Assembly (NCBI GenBank): GCA_963669175.1
Contig: OY769902.1
Coordinates: 1,743,515 to 1,807,514 of the forward strand
DNA length: 64,000 nucleotides
From: a bacterium
GTDB lineage: Bacteria > Electryoneota > Electryoneia > Electryoneales > Electryoneaceae
Direction: 5' to 3'
Positions 5,772 to 36,876 of this stretch are shown here, in pieces; position 1 is the stretch's first letter, and the number at the start of each line of letters is the position of its first letter. The position numbers and the translations under genes are program-made. The notes beneath the pieces are model-generated. The model was given only the letters and a program-made list of their open reading frames with translations. It had not been told where the DNA came from and made no database searches.

Positions 5772-6908
5772 TCAATTTTTTCTACGACCTGATCCTTTCT
5801 TTTTAACTCTATTTAAAAACTCTGATATGCCATGATCTTGATAATATTTCCATGCTTTTCGATATCCTTTGCCATAAGCCGGATCATCATTTTCTTCAAG
5901 CTGATCCAAATGATAGTCTGCGAGTTTACTGTGAATGGATTCCAGCATAATTCGCATGGCTACATTTGCCGAGCCTTCCCGCCAGTCGGCATGGCCGCCG
6001 TCCGCATCATTCTCGTGTTGCCAGACATGAAAAAGCTCATGTGCGGCAACACCGGATAACATATCACGCGGGAGACCATAAAGAAAATAGATTGTTGTAT
6101 CTTCACGAATAACTCTTCCATTCATTGTCTCCGAGTGAACCGAGTGCAGCCCATTGGCATCACCTTCGCCGCCATGCAATTCATGTAATTGATTTTTATC
6201 AACAAGGACGATGCTGATGTCATCCAGGCTGGTGTTGAATCGGATACCGTTGGCTTCCAGCACCGCAGCGGCTTCACGGACAATCTGAGCAGCCTTCCCG
6301 GCGTCGGTGACTTCCGTTTCACGGCAGACTTCACACTGAATACGTCCATCCGCCAATTTCCAGGCGTGTCCCGGCAGAGCAAAACGTCCGCAAGAATCAC
6401 ATAATTCAACCTGGTCCTTATACTCGGCGCTGATCGTGGTTCCCCACCAGTCCGTTACATAGGGACCGAGAATAGGCTGGCCGGTGATAGCGCAAATCGG
6501 GGCAAGGTTCTCTACATAACACGATTCATGATACACCTTGCCATCAATGGTGAAGTATTTGTCCGATACAGGTGCGCCACACCATTCACAACGCGGCGAG
6601 AACTCATGGTGATAACAATCGGGGTGATAAAATTTGCCCTTGTGTTCGATATAGCTGCCATCGATACGAAACCCGCAGGCGGCGCATTTGAAGCATTCCG
6701 GATGAAAGTATTTGCCATTGGCTTCGATGTACTGGCTGGTGATTACTTTACCGCATCCGGCACAGCGTACCCTCTGTGCCAGGGCATGGGTCGGTAATAC
6801 AATCAAGCCAACTGCAGCCGGTGTCACCACACGAACAAATCGCCTGCGATCCCACTTTTCGGCATCGGCTCGACATGTTCTCTCTGTGCTGTTCTTTTTG
6901 CAAGCCAT
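5772..6908 (-). CDS. LIM-type double zinc-finger protein fused to an HExxH zinc metallopeptidase (DA1-like architecture), Tat-like signal
   Basis: N-terminus has an RRRF twin-arginine-like motif followed by a hydrophobic stretch and ALA-Q. Then C-x2-C-x16-H-x2-C-x2-C-x2-C-x19-C-x2-H, which fits the LIM consensus, followed by a second C-x2-C-x16-H-x2-C unit and CDSC...CEVC. C-terminal region carries HELFH (HExxH). Confidence 0.6.
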   Translation of the reverse strand: MACKKNSTERTCRADAEKWDRRRFVRVVTPAAVGLIVLPTHALAQRVRCAGCGKVITSQYIEANGKYFHPECFKCAACGFRIDGSYIEHKGKFYHPDCYHHEFSPRCEWCGAPVSDKYFTIDGKVYHESCYVENLAPICAITGQPILGPYVTDWWGTTISAEYKDQVELCDSCGRFALPGHAWKLADGRIQCEVCRETEVTDAGKAAQIVREAAAVLEANGIRFNTSLDDISIVLVDKNQLHELHGGEGDANGLHSVHSETMNGRVIREDTTIYFLYGLPRDMLSGVAAHELFHVWQHENDADGGHADWREGSANVAMRIMLESIHSKLADYHLDQLEENDDPAYGKGYRKAWKYYQDHGISEFLNRVKKKGSGRRKN

Positions 6909-32996: not shown

Positions 32997-33804
32997 GGTT
33001 GTACTGTTTCCGTTAGCCTGATCAATGTTTAGCGAAAATAAATAATGTAGAGGAGCCTATGATACAAGGCAAGAGGTCAAAAATATTACGTCCCCCGGAT
33101 GAAAAAAGGATCAATCATTCATCCGGTTGAAAATACGCGTTTTGACATGTCGTCCCGTACGGCAAGTTCCTGTCGTCGCATGGGGGGTTAGGGAAATCTA
33201 ATCTCCCTTACTGCAATATGTAACTTAAATATGGGTGCCTCACAATCTTGTGTGTGTATACTATATAGGGCACAAACGCCAAGTGAGTATTCAAGTGACC
33301 CACCTTCGGTGGACATGGATGAAACCTGATCAAACTTTCTGTATTCTTGTTGACTATGGTTGTTTGCCCCGCACGAAACGGCGAGGCACCCCAAAATGAA
33401 TGTTCAAATCATGAGTGAGGTTTGTGGCAGGTATCCTGATCATCATGCTGCTGACAGGGACTTCCTGTTTACAAGATGCTCCTCAAATCCAGTAGTCGTG
33501 AAGGTTTTAGCACGGGGTAACTTGGCTCTCCTGTAATTAGCCTATTCCTCGCGAGACAAACTCTTGATAAGGCAAAAATTGAATATTGTCTTCGTAATTG
33601 TCTATTATTGAATATAGTATCGAAATTCATAATCGGGGATGTAAGATCTCAGCAAACATCTGGTTCTGCCTACTCCAACCTTCCTGAATTGCTCGCCTAT
33701 TGTTTGCATTGTAGATCTACAAGTCTTTAAACTTATAAATACATATGTTAGGAACGGGAAGAGCAACTTTGTCACATTTTTCACAAAGCAGTACAGGAGG
33801 GAGC

Positions 33805-35253
33805 ATGAGATCAGGATGCCTTGTTTTGTTTATCCTTGTCTTTGCATTCGTGATGATCGGGTGTGAAGGGGAGGTTGGGCCCCAGGGACCGGCAGGTCCG
33901 GAAGGCCCGGAAGGAGCGCAAGGCCCGGCGGGTGAAGATGGGCAGGATGGGCAGGGTGTGTATGAGTTTACCTACCTAGGCAATGGTGGCGAAGACTGTA
34001 TGCACTGCCACATGACAACGGTTTCCAACTGGAGCGGCACCAAGCATTACGAAGCTTACGCGGACCTGGATTCGGAAAGTAAGGAAAATCCGTATTGCGT
34101 GAAGTGCCACGTTACCGGTTGGGACAGCGAAGTCGCGTATGGTGATACCGTCATCAATGTATACGGTCCCGATACGACTGGTTTTGATGATTACTGGATG
34201 GTAGAGACCGATGAGGCGGAAGAGCGTCGCATGGCCTTGGCTGGTGTGCAGTGTGAGGCTTGTCACGGTGGCATGGGACCAGACTTCAACGCACATCGTC
34301 CCAATATCAGTTTTGCCACTCATAACGATGAGGATGGTGAATCCTTATCCCTTTGTTCGCCTTGTCACAGCACCCAGTTGAATGAATGGGTGGAATCCGG
34401 GCATGCGGCTGTGCAGGCTTCGTTGACGCCGGAACAGTTTACAGATGAATTCGGACGTTCATCATGCAACCCCTGCCATACCTCGGAAGGTTTCCTTGCC
34501 GCCAATGACCCGGCGTATGCGACCTATGAGTTTGATGAACTGCAATCCTACATCGGTTGTGTGACCTGTCATGATCCGCACTCCAACACCTACGAAGCCC
34601 AGGTGCGCACGGTAGGTGCGGTTGAGACGGTGTACCATCCCGGTTATGAAGATGGCGACCCGGAAGTGGCGACCATGGACGGGTACGGTGTCGGCCAGGT
34701 TTGTGCGCAGTGCCACCACGGACGGCGTGATGCGGACAACGTTGACAGCCAGATTGCAGACGGCTACGCTCACTTCGGTCCGCACGGTTCCCCGCAGATG
34801 GACACCTACATCGGTACCGGTTGTTACGAGATCGAGGACTTCGTCTATGAAGGCAGCCATGCACATCAGTCGATCAGCAACGGCTGCGTAAGCTGTCACA
34901 TGGAACGTGAAGCGATTATCCATGGCGAGCTCCAGGATCACTCGTTCCATTCTTTCACACCGGATGCGGATAACTGCCTGCCCTGCCACAGCATCGAAGA
35001 TTTCGATTACAACGGTGTCCAGACCGAGGTCATGGACAAACTGGATCAATTGGCCCAGGCGCTCGGCTACACAGATCGTGATGATTTCGAAGCCAACTTC
35101 GACAGCCAGGCGGATGGAGTTACCGCTGATGAACGTATGATTGCCTACGCAATGGTGTTCATTCTGAACGATGGCAGCTATGGTGTGCACAATCCTACGT
35201 ACGTGATGGATCTGCTGGACAACGCGATTTCCTATTCGGCAACACTGCCGTAA
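33805..35253 (+). CDS. lipoprotein with collagen-like GXY repeat fused to a nine-heme c-type cytochrome
   Basis: RBS AGGAGGG before ATG 33805. Lipobox VMIGC. Ten consecutive GXY triplets (GEVGPQGPAGPEGPEGAQGPAGEDGQDGQG). Nine CxxCH motifs (CMHCH, CVKCH, CEACH, CSPCH, CNPCH, CVTCH, CAQCH, CVSCH, CLPCH). Confidence 0.75.
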   Translation: MRSGCLVLFILVFAFVMIGCEGEVGPQGPAGPEGPEGAQGPAGEDGQDGQGVYEFTYLGNGGEDCMHCHMTTVSNWSGTKHYEAYADLDSESKENPYCVKCHVTGWDSEVAYGDTVINVYGPDTTGFDDYWMVETDEAEERRMALAGVQCEACHGGMGPDFNAHRPNISFATHNDEDGESLSLCSPCHSTQLNEWVESGHAAVQASLTPEQFTDEFGRSSCNPCHTSEGFLAANDPAYATYEFDELQSYIGCVTCHDPHSNTYEAQVRTVGAVETVYHPGYEDGDPEVATMDGYGVGQVCAQCHHGRRDADNVDSQIADGYAHFGPHGSPQMDTYIGTGCYEIEDFVYEGSHAHQSISNGCVSCHMEREAIIHGELQDHSFHSFTPDADNCLPCHSIEDFDYNGVQTEVMDKLDQLAQALGYTDRDDFEANFDSQADGVTADERMIAYAMVFILNDGSYGVHNPTYVMDLLDNAISYSATLP

Positions 35254-35280
35254 TAGATTGTTCTTATTTTTTGACAAACA

Positions 35281-35318
35281 ACGGGACAGGCCGGTGCTGG
35301 TCTGTCCCGTTGTTCTCC
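35281..35318 (+). terminator. candidate terminator after the cytochrome gene
   Basis: Stem acgggacag / ctgtcccgt with a 12-nt loop, followed by tgttctcc. The U-tract is weak. Confidence 0.35.
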
Positions 35319-35413: not shown

Positions 35414-35663
35414 ATGGTTGGAATAAAGGATAAGGATATGGAAAAAGGGGACAGTTTCCTTTCCCTGGGGCAAAGCCTTCCCGCTGTGAGCATGGACCGG
35501 GAAAGGTGGCTGTACCCTTTTTCTTGAGAGCAGGCAGGACGTACACGGAAAAGGGTACAGTTTCCTTTTCCACAAGTTCGGCGAGAGTTTTTCATATGCG
35601 CGCGAGGAAAAGGATCCCGTCCCCTTTTCCCGGCAATCCTTATTATGTCGGAATAAAATCGAG
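35414..35663. repeat. repeat family B, copy 2
   Basis: Aligned with 14246..14480 and 44698..44962. Ends in ggaataaaatcgagaa as copy 3 does. Confidence 0.6.
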
Positions 35664-35772
35664 AACAGCAATACAAGATGTACAGGATGTTGAAGGATGA
35701 TCAGGATGGGAAATGATTGCTTGAGATAACTTTAGAATATAGTAGCGTGTCAACTTTTTACCTTTTGCTGTT

Positions 35773-36045
35773 ATCCCCGGCTTCGACCGGGGATCTCGCG
35801 GGATATCGTGTAAAGCCCGTTTGGCACTACTTGTGCGTCGTGGTGTACGTCTAACAGTCGGGATACTGGTAGCGCAACCTCGAGATCCCCGTTCAAGCCG
35901 GGGATGACATGGGGATGGGGGATGGGGATGGGGGATGGGGATGACATGGGGATGGGGATGACATGGGGATGGGGTGGGGATGACATAGGGACTGGGGGAT
36001 GGGGATGACATGGGGATGGGGGATGGGGATGACATGGATATTGGG
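35773..36045. repeat. hairpin repeats (family C) plus G-rich heptamer tandem tract
   Basis: Hairpins atccccggcttcgaccggggat and gagatccccgttcaagccggggatgacat, followed by about 140 bp of GGGGATG/GGGGATGACAT units. The overlapping 173-aa minus-strand ORF is a low-complexity artefact. Confidence 0.7.
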
Positions 36046-36186: not shown

Positions 36187-36876
36187 CTACAATGAAAATC
36201 TGCGTAACCGTTGGAAAACGACCGGCACCAGCAGGATAAACACCAGTGTATTGGTTACCAGGTGCATCACGACAAAGGGCAATCCCAGCAGGAAATACGC
36301 CAGCCAGTTGTGCCAGTGAAGCAGACCTGCGGAGAGTGGGAAGGCCAGGGAGGTCAGGGAATCATAAATGAATGTAAGCAGCAGGCCGAAGCAGCCGCTG
36401 ATAATCACCTGAATTTTCAAAGGGGATTGTTGTAACCACGACCGCAACAAACCGAAAGTCATCCCCATGAGCCCCATTCCGGTTATCTGGGCGGCCCATA
36501 CGGGCGGATAAGGCAGTCCCCAGGCATTCAGACCGCCGTAGATCAACATGGCGAACCCACCGACGACAAAACCACTCGATGCTCCGAGCGTCAAACCGGC
36601 AAGCGCGACGGTAGCGCTGATCAGCTCGAAGTTCGGCACGATCGTCAGCAGGTAGCCGAGGGCCACAGCAGCAGCCGTAAACATGGCAACACGAGCCAGC
36701 AAAACAGCCTGGCTTCTCTTGAACCGTGCCGAATGCTCGAACGGGTCACCGGGGTTGTTGGAATTGTGCTGATTTTCCACGATTTTTCGACCTGGTTTCT
36801 TTTGCATGCCACGCAAAGTTAGGTCCGGCAGAGAAACTTTGCAATCATGCGGGAACCCTCGGAACAGTATATTCAT
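36187..36876 (-). CDS. integral membrane protein, possibly an ECF-transporter S component
   Basis: Five or six hydrophobic helices, Gly-rich. No soluble domain. Start uncertain. Family guess only. Confidence 0.35.
   Translation of the reverse strand: MNILFRGFPHDCKVSLPDLTLRGMQKKPGRKIVENQHNSNNPGDPFEHSARFKRSQAVLLARVAMFTAAAVALGYLLTIVPNFELISATVALAGLTLGASSGFVVGGFAMLIYGGLNAWGLPYPPVWAAQITGMGLMGMTFGLLRSWLQQSPLKIQVIISGCFGLLLTFIYDSLTSLAFPLSAGLLHWHNWLAYFLLGLPFVVMHLVTNTLVFILLVPVVFQRLRRFSL

What the first reader, a model, noticed from the sequence alone, without database searches (positions are those of the whole stretch)
33805..35253. Collagen-like GXY repeat fused to a nine-heme c-type cytochrome lipoprotein
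Ten uninterrupted GXY triplets sit directly after the lipobox cysteine. Nine CxxCH motifs follow within about 430 residues. A collagen-like stalk could hold a multiheme domain away from the membrane or drive trimerisation, which suggests an extracellular or periplasmic electron conduit. I do not recognise this combination from characterised cytochromes. The gene has a roughly 800-bp upstream non-coding region and a strong RBS.
Basis: partly seen in the sequence, partly recalled or inferred. Interest (0 to 1): 0.62.

Follow-up and report, generated by a model that had tools for sequence, protein, structure and literature searches.

The report
Collagen-stalked nine-heme cytochrome lipoprotein
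This gene encodes a lipid-anchored nine-heme electron-transfer protein, related to the cell-surface iron reductase OcwA of Gram-positive bacteria, whose heme domain is joined to its membrane anchor by a short collagen-like rod that is conserved across hundreds of relatives in uncultivated bacteria and has not, as far as I could find, been described.

Summary
ORF 33805-35253 (+) encodes a 482-aa protein with a signal peptide and lipobox (Cys20), then Glu21, then ten uninterrupted Gly-X-Y triplets, then a ~430-aa domain with nine CxxCH motifs.

The GXY tract is not a local expansion. 109 of 114 full-length, lipobox-bearing homologs (45-66% identical) carry 4-10 uninterrupted triplets. In 104 of those 109 the run starts one residue after the lipid-modified Cys. 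All nine heme motifs are essentially invariant.

Best reading: an OcwA-type multiheme oxidoreductase of a Gram-negative FCB-group bacterium (Zixibacteria-like). It is tethered by a lipid anchor and held about 3.5-9 nm from the membrane by an acidic, Pro-rich collagen-like stalk that probably trimerises it.

Triple-helix formation, cellular location and substrate could not be tested here. No paper in the searchable library links collagen-like repeats with multiheme cytochromes. Verdict: a new variant of a known kind, of moderately high interest.

The parts
33795..33800 (+). Shine-Dalgarno AGGAGG, 4 nt upstream of the ATG
   Evidence: Sequence read directly.
33805..33861 (+). Signal peptide (residues 1-19, MRSGCLVLFILVFAFVMIG), ending in the lipobox
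   Evidence: The family consensus is L-x-G-C, and Cys20 is invariant in 116/116 aligned homologs.
33862..33864 (+). Lipobox cysteine Cys20, the predicted lipid-modified N-terminus of the mature protein
   Evidence: Invariant column C20. Lipidation is inferred from the motif and was not shown.
33868..33957 (+). Collagen-like tract of ten uninterrupted Gly-X-Y triplets (residues 22-51). It has 6 acidic, 0 basic and 5 Pro residues.
   Evidence: Pfam Collagen scores 21.9 bits, below the 27.2 cut-off. The tract is conserved in 109/114 homologs. The Gly columns G19, G22, G25, G28 and G31 are at least 90% conserved while X and Y vary.
33889..33955 (+). Two 9-bp tandem repeats inside the GXY coding region: CCGGAAGGC x4.4 at 33889-33928 and GATGGGCAG x2.1 at 33937-33955. 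They mark recent triplet-unit slippage.
   Evidence: Tandem Repeats Finder. The nearest homolog, P0002, has only 6 triplets.
33967..35250 (+). OcwA-like nonaheme cytochrome c domain (residues 55-482): a c554-like N-terminal module, an NrfA-like C-terminal module and a C-terminal three-helix bundle (helices 402-419, 441-456, 464-478)
33997..34011 (+). Heme motif 1, CMHCH (residue 65)
   Evidence: invariant.
34096..34110 (+). Heme motif 2, CVKCH (residue 98). It is equivalent by order to OcwA heme 2, which is five-coordinate in OcwA.
   Evidence: OcwA heme coordination is from PMC6703420. The equivalence is inferred from motif order.
34252..34266 (+). Heme motif 3, CEACH (residue 150)
   Evidence: It aligns with OcwA CEQCH.
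34354..34368 (+). Heme motif 4, CSPCH (residue 184)
34465..34479 (+). Heme motif 5, CNPCH (residue 221). It is the candidate open-coordination site, equivalent to NrfA heme 1 and OcwA heme 5.
   Evidence: It aligns with OcwA CLKCH-SAEAY. OcwA heme 5 is five-coordinate. The family motif H323-F-G-P-H327 aligns with OcwA V-H-H-P-H, the distal pocket of heme 5. The assignment is an inference.
34558..34572 (+). Heme motif 6, CVTCH (residue 252)
34702..34716 (+). Heme motif 7, CAQCH (residue 300)
34885..34899 (+). Heme motif 8, CVSCH-M (residue 361)
   Evidence: M366 is 99% conserved.
34975..34989 (+). Heme motif 9, CLPCH (residue 391)
35277..35314 (+). Perfect-looking hairpin 24 nt after the stop codon (16-nt arms, 94% complementary, 6-nt loop). 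It is a probable transcription terminator but has no clean T run.
   Evidence: the repeat finder I8. The consensus terminator scan did not pick it up.

Best explanation
The gene encodes a secreted, lipid-anchored member of the OcwA/OmhA branch of the NrfA-c554-MccA multiheme cytochrome superfamily.

Proposed sequence of events:
1. The protein is exported by Sec, lipid-modified at Cys20 and loaded with nine c-type hemes. These steps are inferred from the motifs.
2. The nine hemes form one continuous chain, a c554-like tetraheme module followed by an NrfA-like pentaheme module, ending in a three-helix bundle. Homology and fold are shown.
3. As in OcwA, six conserved distal histidines would leave one or two hemes (2 and/or 5) with an open coordination site. 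The protein could then both pass electrons along the chain and bind small substrates or flavins. This is inferred.
4. Between the lipid anchor and the heme domain lies a conserved, acidic, Pro-rich (Gly-X-Y)4-10 tract, ten triplets in this protein. Whether it is a triple helix or a single polyproline-II strand, it is extended. Six triplets span about 5 nm and ten about 8.6-9.3 nm.
5. It therefore acts as a spacer that holds the heme domain a defined distance from the membrane. Its conservation is shown; its function is inferred.

I think it most likely that three chains, brought together by their adjacent lipid anchors and by the globular domain, zip into a short collagen triple helix. That would give a trimer carrying 27 hemes.

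I also think the assembly most likely serves as a terminal or near-terminal oxidoreductase at the outer side of the envelope, acting on Fe(III)/Mn(IV) minerals, humics or flavins, with nitrite or hydroxylamine reduction as a side activity. This rests on analogy with OcwA and on the neighbouring multiheme clusters seen in some relatives.

The confidence of 0.6 is for the whole statement. By component it is about 0.9 for an OcwA-type nonaheme lipoprotein with a conserved spacer, about 0.5 for the triple helix and trimer, and about 0.45 for an outward-facing electron-transfer role.
For: Anatomy.

Conservation of the GXY tract:
- 109/114 homologs carry 4-10 uninterrupted triplets, starting one residue after the Cys in 104/109.
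- The spacer from the end of the run to heme 1 is mostly 12-15 residues (103 of 109).
- Position X is 54% Pro, and K/R are almost absent.
- Gly columns are at least 90% conserved while X and Y vary.
- The tract is also present in every full-length close representative at the 50%-identity cluster level, with profile E-values down to about 1e-91.

Independent recurrence: other OcwA-related multiheme architectures also carry a GXY run directly behind the N-terminal membrane anchor. That anchor is a lipobox Cys in L049, L059, L067, L071, P0277 and P0283, and an N-terminal hydrophobic helix without a lipobox Cys in P0200.

Heme domain:
- All nine CxxCH are essentially invariant.
- The AF2 model has pLDDT 90.5.
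- The family profile against PDB sequences has OcwA as best hit, E 5.5e-14, with seven of the nine heme motifs aligned one-to-one, heme 4 aligned ambiguously and heme 2 not aligned.
- Six non-motif His (H81, H200, H259, H327, H379, H462) are conserved in both the family and OcwA. This equals the number of bis-His hemes in OcwA.

OcwA properties (PMC6703420): cell-surface terminal reductase, hemes 2 and 5 five-coordinate, reduces nitrite and hydroxylamine, binds FMN. Its in-vitro iron-oxide reductase activity is stated (Soares et al.).

Gene context in 4 of 13 contexts (the window plus 12 related loci): the gene lies beside a NapC/NirT-type 17-18-heme membrane cytochrome (L001, L003, L081; L082 instead has a multiheme protein fused to a cytochrome b domain). 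L001, L003 and L082 also carry a conserved ~420-aa protein without Pfam match and further multiheme proteins. L001 has a cytochrome with a T9SS C-terminal sorting tail.

Background knowledge, not tested here: N-terminal lipid tails stabilise short collagen-model peptides (peptide-amphiphile work), and short GXY runs occur in trimeric phage fibres.
Against: - No result here shows a triple helix or a trimer. The AF2 monomer model is uninformative for residues 20-55 (pLDDT about 50).
- Four to ten Hyp-free triplets are short for a stable triple helix on their own.
- The tract is strongly acidic with almost no basic residues, so the inter-chain salt bridges used by known bacterial collagens are unavailable and three chains would repel each other.
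- OcwA itself is a monomer/dimer mixture, not a trimer.
- Five family members replace the GXY run with an ordinary linker of similar length. Spacing may therefore matter more than trimerisation.
- The gene is solitary in the window and in most of the contexts examined, so no partner fixes its pathway.
- Location (periplasmic face or cell surface) is unknown.
- The OcwA His-His motif above heme 2 has no clear counterpart. The motif above heme 5 is only approximately matched.
Confidence: 0.6

Rival explanations
1. The same OcwA-like lipoprotein, but the GXY tract never forms a collagen triple helix. It is a monomeric, extended polyproline-II tether, as many lipoproteins have, and acts only as a semi-rigid spacer. 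It may also act as a sorting signal, comparable to the acidic lipoprotein export signal that follows the Cys of surface lipoproteins in Bacteroidota.
For: - The run is short (4-10 triplets) and acidic, with no K/R.
- Five homologs have a non-collagen linker of similar length instead.
- OcwA is a monomer/dimer.
- Pfam Collagen scores below its cut-off for this protein.
- The residues after the Cys are E/T-G-D/E, which loosely resembles acidic export signals. That comparison comes from background knowledge and was not tested.
- PgcA of Geobacter, an extracellular multiheme lipoprotein, uses Pro-Thr repeats without detectable special secondary structure.
Against: A plain tether does not need Gly at exactly every third position. 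Yet the Gly register is uninterrupted in 109 homologs whose X and Y residues have diverged. Length changes occur in whole triplets. Many runs end in GPPG next to the globular domain, as expected for a nucleation end. The same GXY design recurs in unrelated N-terminal contexts, with up to 31 triplets in L049.
Confidence: 0.33
2. A periplasmic enzyme rather than an electron conduit: a membrane-tethered NrfA/ONR-like reductase of nitrite, hydroxylamine or NO (or another small N/S oxyanion). The stalk would merely let the catalytic domain reach its redox partner in the periplasm.
For: - Automated pipelines name some homologs 'ammonia-forming cytochrome c nitrite reductase subunit c552'.
- The C-terminal 130 residues match Pfam Cytochrom_C552 and NrfA structures.
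- ONR and NrfA are the next-best structural matches.
- OcwA itself reduces nitrite and hydroxylamine.
- A His-rich, invariant segment (H323, H327, Q331, D333) lies where the NrfA/OcwA active-site pocket aligns.
Against: - There is no CxxCK heme.
- NCBIfam NrfA scores 15.8 bits against a cut-off of 595.
- No NrfH/NrfBCD partner is adjacent in the window or in the related loci.
- OcwA and OmhA are distinctly closer than any nitrite reductase.
- Where there is a conserved neighbourhood, it consists of large multiheme, NapC/NirT-fusion and T9SS-tailed cytochromes.
Confidence: 0.25
3. The GXY run is a recent, selectively neutral low-complexity expansion (replication slippage) in this one gene and has no structural role.
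For: Two 9-bp tandem repeats lie inside the coding region, one of them perfect. This copy has 10 triplets and its nearest homolog has 6.
Against: The tract is present at the same position in 109/114 homologs at 45-66% identity, and in all close 50%-cluster representatives, with diverged codons and X/Y residues. Slippage explains only the last one or two triplets.
Confidence: 0.02

Closest known systems
OcwA (TherJR_2595), nonaheme outer-cell-wall cytochrome of Thermincola potens JR (PDB 6I5B; PMC6703420)
   Same: - Nine CxxCH in about 480 residues.
- A c554-like N-module, an NrfA-like C-module and a C-terminal three-helix bundle.
- Seven of the nine heme motifs align one-to-one; heme 4 aligns ambiguously and heme 2 is not aligned.
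- Six distal His are conserved in both.
   Different: - Only about 25% identity over the aligned core.
- OcwA comes from a Gram-positive bacterium. It has an ordinary cleaved signal peptide (mature N-terminus EKPAD), with no lipobox and no GXY tract.
- OcwA carries an extra beta-sheet domain and a ~55-residue insertion bearing the HH281/282 motif. This family lacks a clear counterpart.
- OcwA is a monomer/dimer.
OmhA, undecaheme S-layer cytochrome of Carboxydothermus ferrireducens (PDB 6QVM)
   Different: It has eleven hemes and an N-terminal diheme extension, and is associated with the Gram-positive S-layer. It has no lipobox or collagen-like segment.
NrfA / ONR / MccA / HAO multiheme enzymes
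   Different: There is no CxxCK catalytic heme, no NrfH partner, a different number of hemes and much weaker similarity. NCBIfam NrfA scores 15.8 bits against a cut-off of 595.
Bacterial collagen-like proteins (Scl1/Scl2, BclA, Lcl, Bucl)
   Same: Uninterrupted Gly-X-Y repeats with Pro favoured at X and no expected hydroxyproline. There are weak hits to the SclA/SclB/Lcl models and to BclA 1WCK.
   Different: - Much shorter: 4-10 triplets, compared with tens in the known proteins.
- 54% Pro at X, compared with 19-31% in known bacterial collagens. Gln/Pro/Glu/Ala at Y instead of Thr (against PMC8968730).
- No basic residues.
- Anchored by an N-terminal lipid rather than LPXTG.
- No recognised trimerisation (V) domain.
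- Attached to a redox enzyme rather than an adhesin.
PgcA of Geobacter sulfurreducens (extracellular triheme lipoprotein with Pro-Thr repeats; PMC5732950)
   Same: A lipobox-bearing multiheme cytochrome that uses Pro-rich tandem repeats as extended linkers and acts on Fe(III) oxides outside the cell. It is a functional analogy.
   Different: It is not homologous. Its repeats are (PT)n placed between heme domains, not GXY behind the lipid anchor. No special secondary structure was detected.
Braun's lipoprotein Lpp (background knowledge)
   Same: An N-terminally lipidated trimeric rod about 8 nm long that sets a distance in the envelope. It is a conceptual analogue of a lipidated trimeric spacer.
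   Different: It is an alpha-helical coiled coil with no enzymatic cargo, and it is not homologous.

Membership tests
OcwA/OmhA-type cell-surface multiheme cytochromes | Nine CxxCH motifs in the OcwA order (c554-like hemes 1-4, NrfA-like hemes 5-9) | tested here: met
   The nine motifs are present and invariant across 116 homologs. Motifs 1, 3, 5, 6, 7, 8 and 9 align with OcwA motifs, motif 4 aligns ambiguously and motif 2 is not aligned. Pfam places C554 at residues 65-110 and C552 at 347-479.
OcwA/OmhA-type cell-surface multiheme cytochromes | Overall fold, including the C-terminal three-helix bundle, closer to OcwA than to other multiheme families | tested here: met
OcwA/OmhA-type cell-surface multiheme cytochromes | Significant sequence homology | tested here: met
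   The family profile against PDB sequences has 6i5b as best hit, E 5.5e-14. The single sequence alone does not reach OcwA.
OcwA/OmhA-type cell-surface multiheme cytochromes | Two five-coordinate hemes (2 and 5) with His-His motifs above the distal face (HH281/282, HH380/381) | tested here: inconclusive
   The family motif H323-F-G-P-H327 aligns with OcwA V-H-H-P-H at heme 5 with a one-residue offset. The HH281/282 segment of OcwA aligns ambiguously with the family's heme-4 motif. Six shared distal His fit six bis-His hemes. Spin states need spectroscopy.
OcwA/OmhA-type cell-surface multiheme cytochromes | Cell-surface location and reduction of Fe(III) oxides or electrodes | not testable with these tools
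   Only indirect hints exist. Four related loci have neighbouring multiheme genes, and one of them includes a cytochrome with a T9SS sorting tail.
NrfA pentaheme nitrite reductase | CxxCK active-site heme and full-length match to the NrfA models | tested here: not met
   There is no CxxCK. NCBIfam NF008339 scores 15.8 bits against a cut-off of 595. Only the C-terminal ~130 residues match PF02335.
NrfA pentaheme nitrite reductase | Adjacent NrfH or NrfBCD electron donor | tested here: not met
   There is no other cytochrome in the 64-kb window and no NrfH-type neighbour in the contexts examined.
Collagen triple-helix repeat proteins (Pfam PF01391; bacterial Scl/Bcl type) | Uninterrupted Gly-X-Y repeats | tested here: met
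   There are ten triplets after the Cys, and they are conserved in 109/114 homologs.
Collagen triple-helix repeat proteins (Pfam PF01391; bacterial Scl/Bcl type) | Score above the Pfam gathering threshold | tested here: not met
   The score is 21.9 bits against 27.2, because the tract is short. Four homologs with long runs do carry a precomputed PF01391 hit (P0020, P0026, P0070, P0091).
Collagen triple-helix repeat proteins (Pfam PF01391; bacterial Scl/Bcl type) | Formation of a homotrimeric triple helix, usually nucleated by an adjacent trimerisation domain | not testable with these tools
   The structure tool predicts single chains only, and the model has pLDDT about 50 over the tract. No known trimerisation domain was detected.
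Bacterial lipoproteins | Signal peptide ending in a lipobox [LVI][ASTVI][GAS]C | tested here: met
   This protein has VMIGC, with Met at position -3, which is atypical. The family consensus is L-[VA]-G-C, and the Cys is invariant in 116/116. Actual acylation is not testable here.
MtrC/OmcA/UndA outer-membrane decaheme cytochromes | Staggered-cross deca/undecaheme fold with beta-barrel domains | tested here: not met

The most novel reading that the evidence does not exclude
The acidic (Gly-Pro-X)n tract directly behind the lipidated cysteine folds into a genuine collagen triple helix, nucleated by the three clustered lipid anchors. It would assemble three OcwA-like nonaheme units into a 27-heme complex held 3.5-9 nm above the outer membrane. 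This 'collagen stalk' would be a reusable module by which several families of multiheme cytochromes, in Zixibacteria, Gemmatimonadota, Latescibacterota, Krumholzibacteria, Myxococcota and others, are displayed beyond the LPS layer for extracellular electron transfer. That would be a structural principle not described for any characterised electron conduit.
Probability: 0.3. Interest if true: 0.8.

Novelty: new variant of a known kind. Interest (0 to 1): 0.6.

Why it matters
OcwA was presented as the way Gram-positive thermophiles deliver electrons across a thick wall. This locus belongs to a large, deeply branching set of OcwA-like nonaheme cytochromes in uncultivated Gram-negative phyla. The family profile finds 418 clusters at the 50%-identity level with E <= 1e-30, and 5,906 at E <= 1e-3, although the weaker hits include other branches of the superfamily. 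Automated annotation currently labels members as 'hypothetical' or, probably wrongly, as NrfA nitrite reductase.

The conserved collagen-like stalk gives a concrete and cheap hypothesis about how such cytochromes are positioned and oligomerised at the envelope. If the triple helix is real, three things follow:
- It would be the first collagen-type element linked to respiratory electron transfer.
- It would be an unusually short, acidic, lipid-nucleated bacterial collagen.
- It would offer a ready-made design for spacing redox proteins from membranes in bioelectrochemical engineering.

The result also bears on metagenome-based inference of iron and nitrogen cycling in sediments and soils where these phyla are abundant.

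Tried and rejected
1. Chance or local expansion of the GXY run: rejected. Only the last one or two triplets are a recent 9-bp duplication.
2. The alternative start at 33745 (502 aa): rejected because homolog N-termini match the 33805 start. Neither form is on record in the gene-position index.
3. Single-sequence search of PDB: only marginal NrfA, MtrA and BclA hits. The family profile and the fold search were needed to reach OcwA.
4. NrfA membership: rejected.
5. MtrC/OmcA-type membership: rejected.
6. Partner genes in the window: none. There is no other CxxCH-containing ORF and no homolog of the ~420-aa, 638-aa, 365-aa or 183-aa cluster proteins of L001/L003/L082.
7. A conserved upstream element or leader: the 808-bp upstream region shares nothing with the upstream regions of 11 related loci. 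Rfam gave only sub-threshold chance hits. Promoter-like and terminator-like matches were no more frequent than in shuffled sequence.
8. The small ORF (80-83 aa) upstream of the gene in L081/L082: not present in the window.
9. Literature: five searches found no paper that mentions collagen-like repeats together with multiheme cytochromes, or OcwA together with these phyla. The library holds only open-access papers, so this is not proof of absence.
10. Trimer prediction: not possible, because the structure tool takes single natural chains only.
11. afdb50 fold search: the library was unavailable.
12. Organism: not named in any source. GlnRS points only tentatively to Zixibacteria (67-69% identity).
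Full report
**1. The observation**

ORF 33805-35253 on the + strand is preceded by AGGAGG, 4 nt upstream of the ATG. It encodes 482 residues. Residues 1-19 form a hydrophobic signal peptide that ends in the lipobox VMIGC, with Cys20 as the modified residue.

The mature protein would begin C-E-GEV-GPQ-GPA-GPE-GPE-GAQ-GPA-GED-GQD-GQG. That is ten uninterrupted Gly-X-Y triplets (33868-33957), or eleven if counted from the lipobox glycine. Nine CxxCH motifs follow, starting at residues 65, 98, 150, 184, 221, 252, 300, 361 and 391. No CxxCK or longer-spaced variant is present.

Glycine makes up 8.7% of the rest of the protein, so ten in register has a chance probability of about 2e-11. The upstream intergenic region is 808 bp. 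A 16-bp-stem hairpin lies 24 nt after the stop codon.

**2. The GXY tract is a conserved family feature**

A database search returned more than 842 homologs, and the best 120 are 45-66% identical to the query. I examined the 114 full-length sequences that have a lipobox.
- 109 carry 4-10 uninterrupted triplets after the Cys, most often 6.
- In 104 of those 109, the run starts exactly one residue after the Cys. The consensus is G-C-E-G-D-x-G-P-x-G-P.
- The stretch between the end of the run and the first heme cysteine is mostly 12-15 residues (103 of 109).

The Gly columns are at least 90% conserved, whereas X and Y vary. Position X is 54% Pro. Position Y is mainly Gln, Pro, Glu, Ala or Asp. 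Lys and Arg are almost absent.

An exhaustive profile search of 1.84 billion cluster representatives found 418 clusters at E <= 1e-30. Every full-length close representative again has the lipobox-GXY arrangement. This includes a sub-group with an extra domain inserted after the stalk.

The only local peculiarity in the window copy is a pair of 9-bp tandem repeats in the coding DNA. One is a perfect GATGGGCAG duplication that accounts for the last GQD-GQ(G) units. The second, 'heme motifs not conserved', is not met either: eight of the nine CxxCH motifs are invariant in all 116 aligned sequences, and the ninth varies only at C391 (97%).

**3. What the heme domain is**

Pfam and NCBIfam give only generic multiheme hits. 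There is a c554-type match at residues 65-110 and an NrfA-type match at 347-479. A single-sequence search of PDB gave only marginal hits.

An AlphaFold2 model built on 116 homologs is confident for residues 55-482 (pLDDT 90.5, pTM 0.84). It ends in three helices. The fold and profile searches gave the following.

| Search | Best matches |
|---|---|
| Foldseek against PDB | OcwA first, E 2e-8 |
| Family profile against PDB sequences | OcwA best, E 5.5e-14; motifs 1, 3 and 5-9 aligned one-to-one, motif 4 ambiguously, motif 2 not aligned |

OcwA is described as a nine-heme cell-surface terminal reductase. It combines a c554-like tetraheme module, an NrfA-like pentaheme module and a three-helix bundle. 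Six of its hemes are bis-His, heme 9 is His/Met, and hemes 2 and 5 are five-coordinate. It reduces nitrite and hydroxylamine in vitro and binds FMN (PMC6703420); its iron-oxide reductase activity is stated by Soares et al..

Six non-motif histidines (H81, H200, H259, H327, H379, H462) are conserved in both this family and OcwA. That number equals the number of bis-His hemes in OcwA. The family's invariant H323-F-G-P-H327...Q331-x-D333 segment aligns with OcwA's V-H-H-P-H, which forms the distal pocket of heme 5. The OcwA HH281/282 motif over heme 2 has no clear counterpart.

I therefore file the domain as OcwA-type. Its heme coordination is probably, but not demonstrably, similar to that of OcwA.

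**4. Surroundings and organism**

The window contains no other CxxCH-bearing ORF. The neighbours are housekeeping genes: YchF upstream on the opposite strand, and PII, glutamine synthetase and DapA/B nearby.

I examined twelve related loci in addition to the window.
- Four place the gene next to multiheme clusters. L001, L003 and L081 have a 638-642-aa NapC/NirT-type cytochrome with 17-18 hemes. L001, L003 and L082 have a conserved ~420-aa protein with no Pfam match, which is 37-78% identical between those three loci. L001, L003 and L082 also carry further multiheme proteins, including a c554-like tetraheme protein. L001 has an octaheme protein with a T9SS sorting tail, and L082 has a multiheme protein fused to a cytochrome b domain.
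- One (L005) lies next to a divergently oriented 8-heme cytochrome gene.
- In the remaining seven the gene is solitary or its flanks are too short to judge.

This context is suggestive of extracellular electron transfer. It is neither universal nor present here.

No source names the organism. Its GlnRS is closest to named Zixibacteria sequences at 67-69% identity. Named homologs of the cytochrome come from Gemmatimonadota, Latescibacterota, Eisenbacteria, Krumholzibacteria and Fibrobacteraceae MAGs. A diderm of the FCB group is the likely source.

**5. How it most likely works**

Shown:
- A nine-heme OcwA-type domain follows a lipobox.
- A conserved, register-perfect, Pro-rich GXY tract of 4-10 triplets lies between them.

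Inferred:
- The protein is lipidated and loaded with heme.
- The tract is extended in either conformation. Six triplets span about 5 nm and ten about 8.6-9.3 nm. It therefore sets the distance between membrane and heme domain.
- Strict Gly periodicity, indels in whole triplets and the frequent GPPG end next to the globular domain point to a collagen-type triple helix, and hence to a trimer. Three adjacent lipid anchors would help nucleate such a short helix. This last point rests on background knowledge of lipidated collagen-model peptides.

Against the triple helix:
- The tract is short and lacks hydroxyproline.
- It is acidic with no basic residues for inter-chain salt bridges.
- OcwA is a monomer/dimer.
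- Five homologs replace the tract with an ordinary linker.

I put the triple helix at roughly even odds. I put the spacer role much higher.

By analogy with OcwA and the occasional neighbouring clusters, the function is most likely a terminal or near-terminal oxidoreductase at the outer side of the envelope. A periplasmic nitrite/hydroxylamine-type enzyme is the main functional rival. There is no CxxCK heme, no NrfH partner and no NrfA-model match.

**6. A recurring module**

More distant OcwA-related proteins with other architectures also place a GXY run directly behind the N-terminal membrane anchor. The anchor is a lipobox Cys in all but P0200, which has an N-terminal hydrophobic helix instead.

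| Protein or locus | Source | Length | Hemes | Triplets |
|---|---|---|---|---|
| L049 | Myxococcota | 934 aa | 9 | 31 |
| L059 | Anaeromyxobacter | 922 aa | 9 | 13 |
| L071 | delta-proteobacterial MAG | 1120 aa | 9 | 12 |
| L067 | Roseivirgaceae | 360 aa | 5 | 11 |
| P0200 | not named | 759 aa | 8 | 25 |
| P0277 | not named | 337 aa | 5 | 5 |
| P0283 | not named | 362 aa | 6 | 9 |

Ignavibacteria- and Verrucomicrobia-type relatives instead have a long non-collagen N-terminal extension of roughly 120-160 residues. The collagen-like stalk thus looks like one of several interchangeable display modules for this heme domain.

**7. Comparison with what is known, and novelty**

The heme domain is a new, distant member of a known kind, the OcwA/OmhA clade of the NrfA-c554-MccA superfamily. 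The lipobox-plus-collagen stalk is not part of any characterised cytochrome that I could find. Neither the OcwA paper nor the evolutionary analysis by Soares et al. mentions it. Five full-text searches returned nothing that links collagen-like repeats to multiheme cytochromes.

The nearest functional analogy is Geobacter PgcA, a lipoprotein cytochrome with Pro-Thr repeat linkers. Compared with known bacterial collagens, the tract is much shorter, richer in Pro at X (54% against 19-31%), lacks Thr at Y and lacks basic residues.

Verdict: a new variant of a known kind, with interest about 0.6. The finding would rise sharply if a lipid-nucleated triple helix and a trimeric 27-heme surface assembly were demonstrated.

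Noticed in passing
window 35440-35631: There are four copies of a ~23-25-nt palindromic unit (GGAAAAGG-N8-10-CCTTTTCC) spaced 48-59 nt apart. They lie in the 930-bp non-coding stretch downstream of the cytochrome gene, and the copies are also mutually complementary. Only sub-threshold chance Rfam hits were found. Their function is unknown.
   Followed up: partly
window 35900-36037: A G-rich tandem repeat, GGGGATGGGGATGACATGGGGATG (period 24, about 3.8 copies, with sub-periods of 6, 7 and 17), lies on the + strand. It is G-quadruplex-prone and is flanked by a 23-26-nt inverted repeat (35769-35801 / 35878-35909).
   Followed up: no
window 5772-6908 (-): A 378-aa protein has a LIM zinc-finger domain (PF00412, E 7e-13) and a DA1-like peptidase domain (PF12315, E 1e-12). 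To my knowledge this combination is typical of plants and other eukaryotes, so it is unusual in a bacterial genome.
   Followed up: no
window 36187-36876 (-): The next gene downstream is convergent with the cytochrome gene. It is an ECF-transporter S component with a weak riboflavin-type match (PF07155, E 2e-4). OcwA binds FMN tightly. The proximity may be a coincidence.
   Followed up: no
L001 4235-13941; L003 9608-17184; L081 9573-11489; L082 9654-17488: A recurrent cluster lies next to the nine-heme gene in some relatives. L001, L003 and L081 have a 638-642-aa NapC/NirT-type cytochrome with 17-18 hemes. L001, L003 and L082 have a conserved ~420-aa secreted protein with no Pfam match (a possible beta-barrel), plus multiheme lipoproteins and a c554-like tetraheme protein. 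L001 has an octaheme protein with a T9SS sorting tail, and L082 has a multiheme protein fused to a cytochrome b domain.
   Followed up: partly
L049, L059, L067, L071; proteins P0200, P0277, P0283: Other multiheme architectures (5-9 hemes, 337-1120 aa) also carry a GXY run of 5-31 triplets directly behind the N-terminal membrane anchor, which is a lipobox Cys in all but P0200 (a hydrophobic helix there). The stalk therefore looks like a reusable module.
   Followed up: partly
proteins P0010, P0054, P0079, P0080, P0081: Five close family members keep the lipobox and all nine hemes but replace the GXY run with a non-repetitive linker of roughly similar length.
   Followed up: no
proteins P0147, P0153, P0154, P0156, P0160: A sub-group of 535-559 aa has an extra ~90-residue segment, starting N-P-x-x-A-P-x-I-T-A, inserted between the GXY stalk and the heme domain.
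   Followed up: no
L081 7703-7954; L082 7676-7918: A small conserved ORF (80-83 aa, 44% identical between the two loci) lies immediately upstream of the cytochrome gene in two relatives. It is absent from the window's 808-bp upstream region.
   Followed up: yes
homologs P0021, P0026, P0123, P0127 and others: NCBI's annotation pipeline names several members of this family 'ammonia-forming cytochrome c nitrite reductase subunit c552'. The family lacks the CxxCK heme and scores far below the NrfA model cut-off, so this is probably a misannotation.
   Followed up: yes
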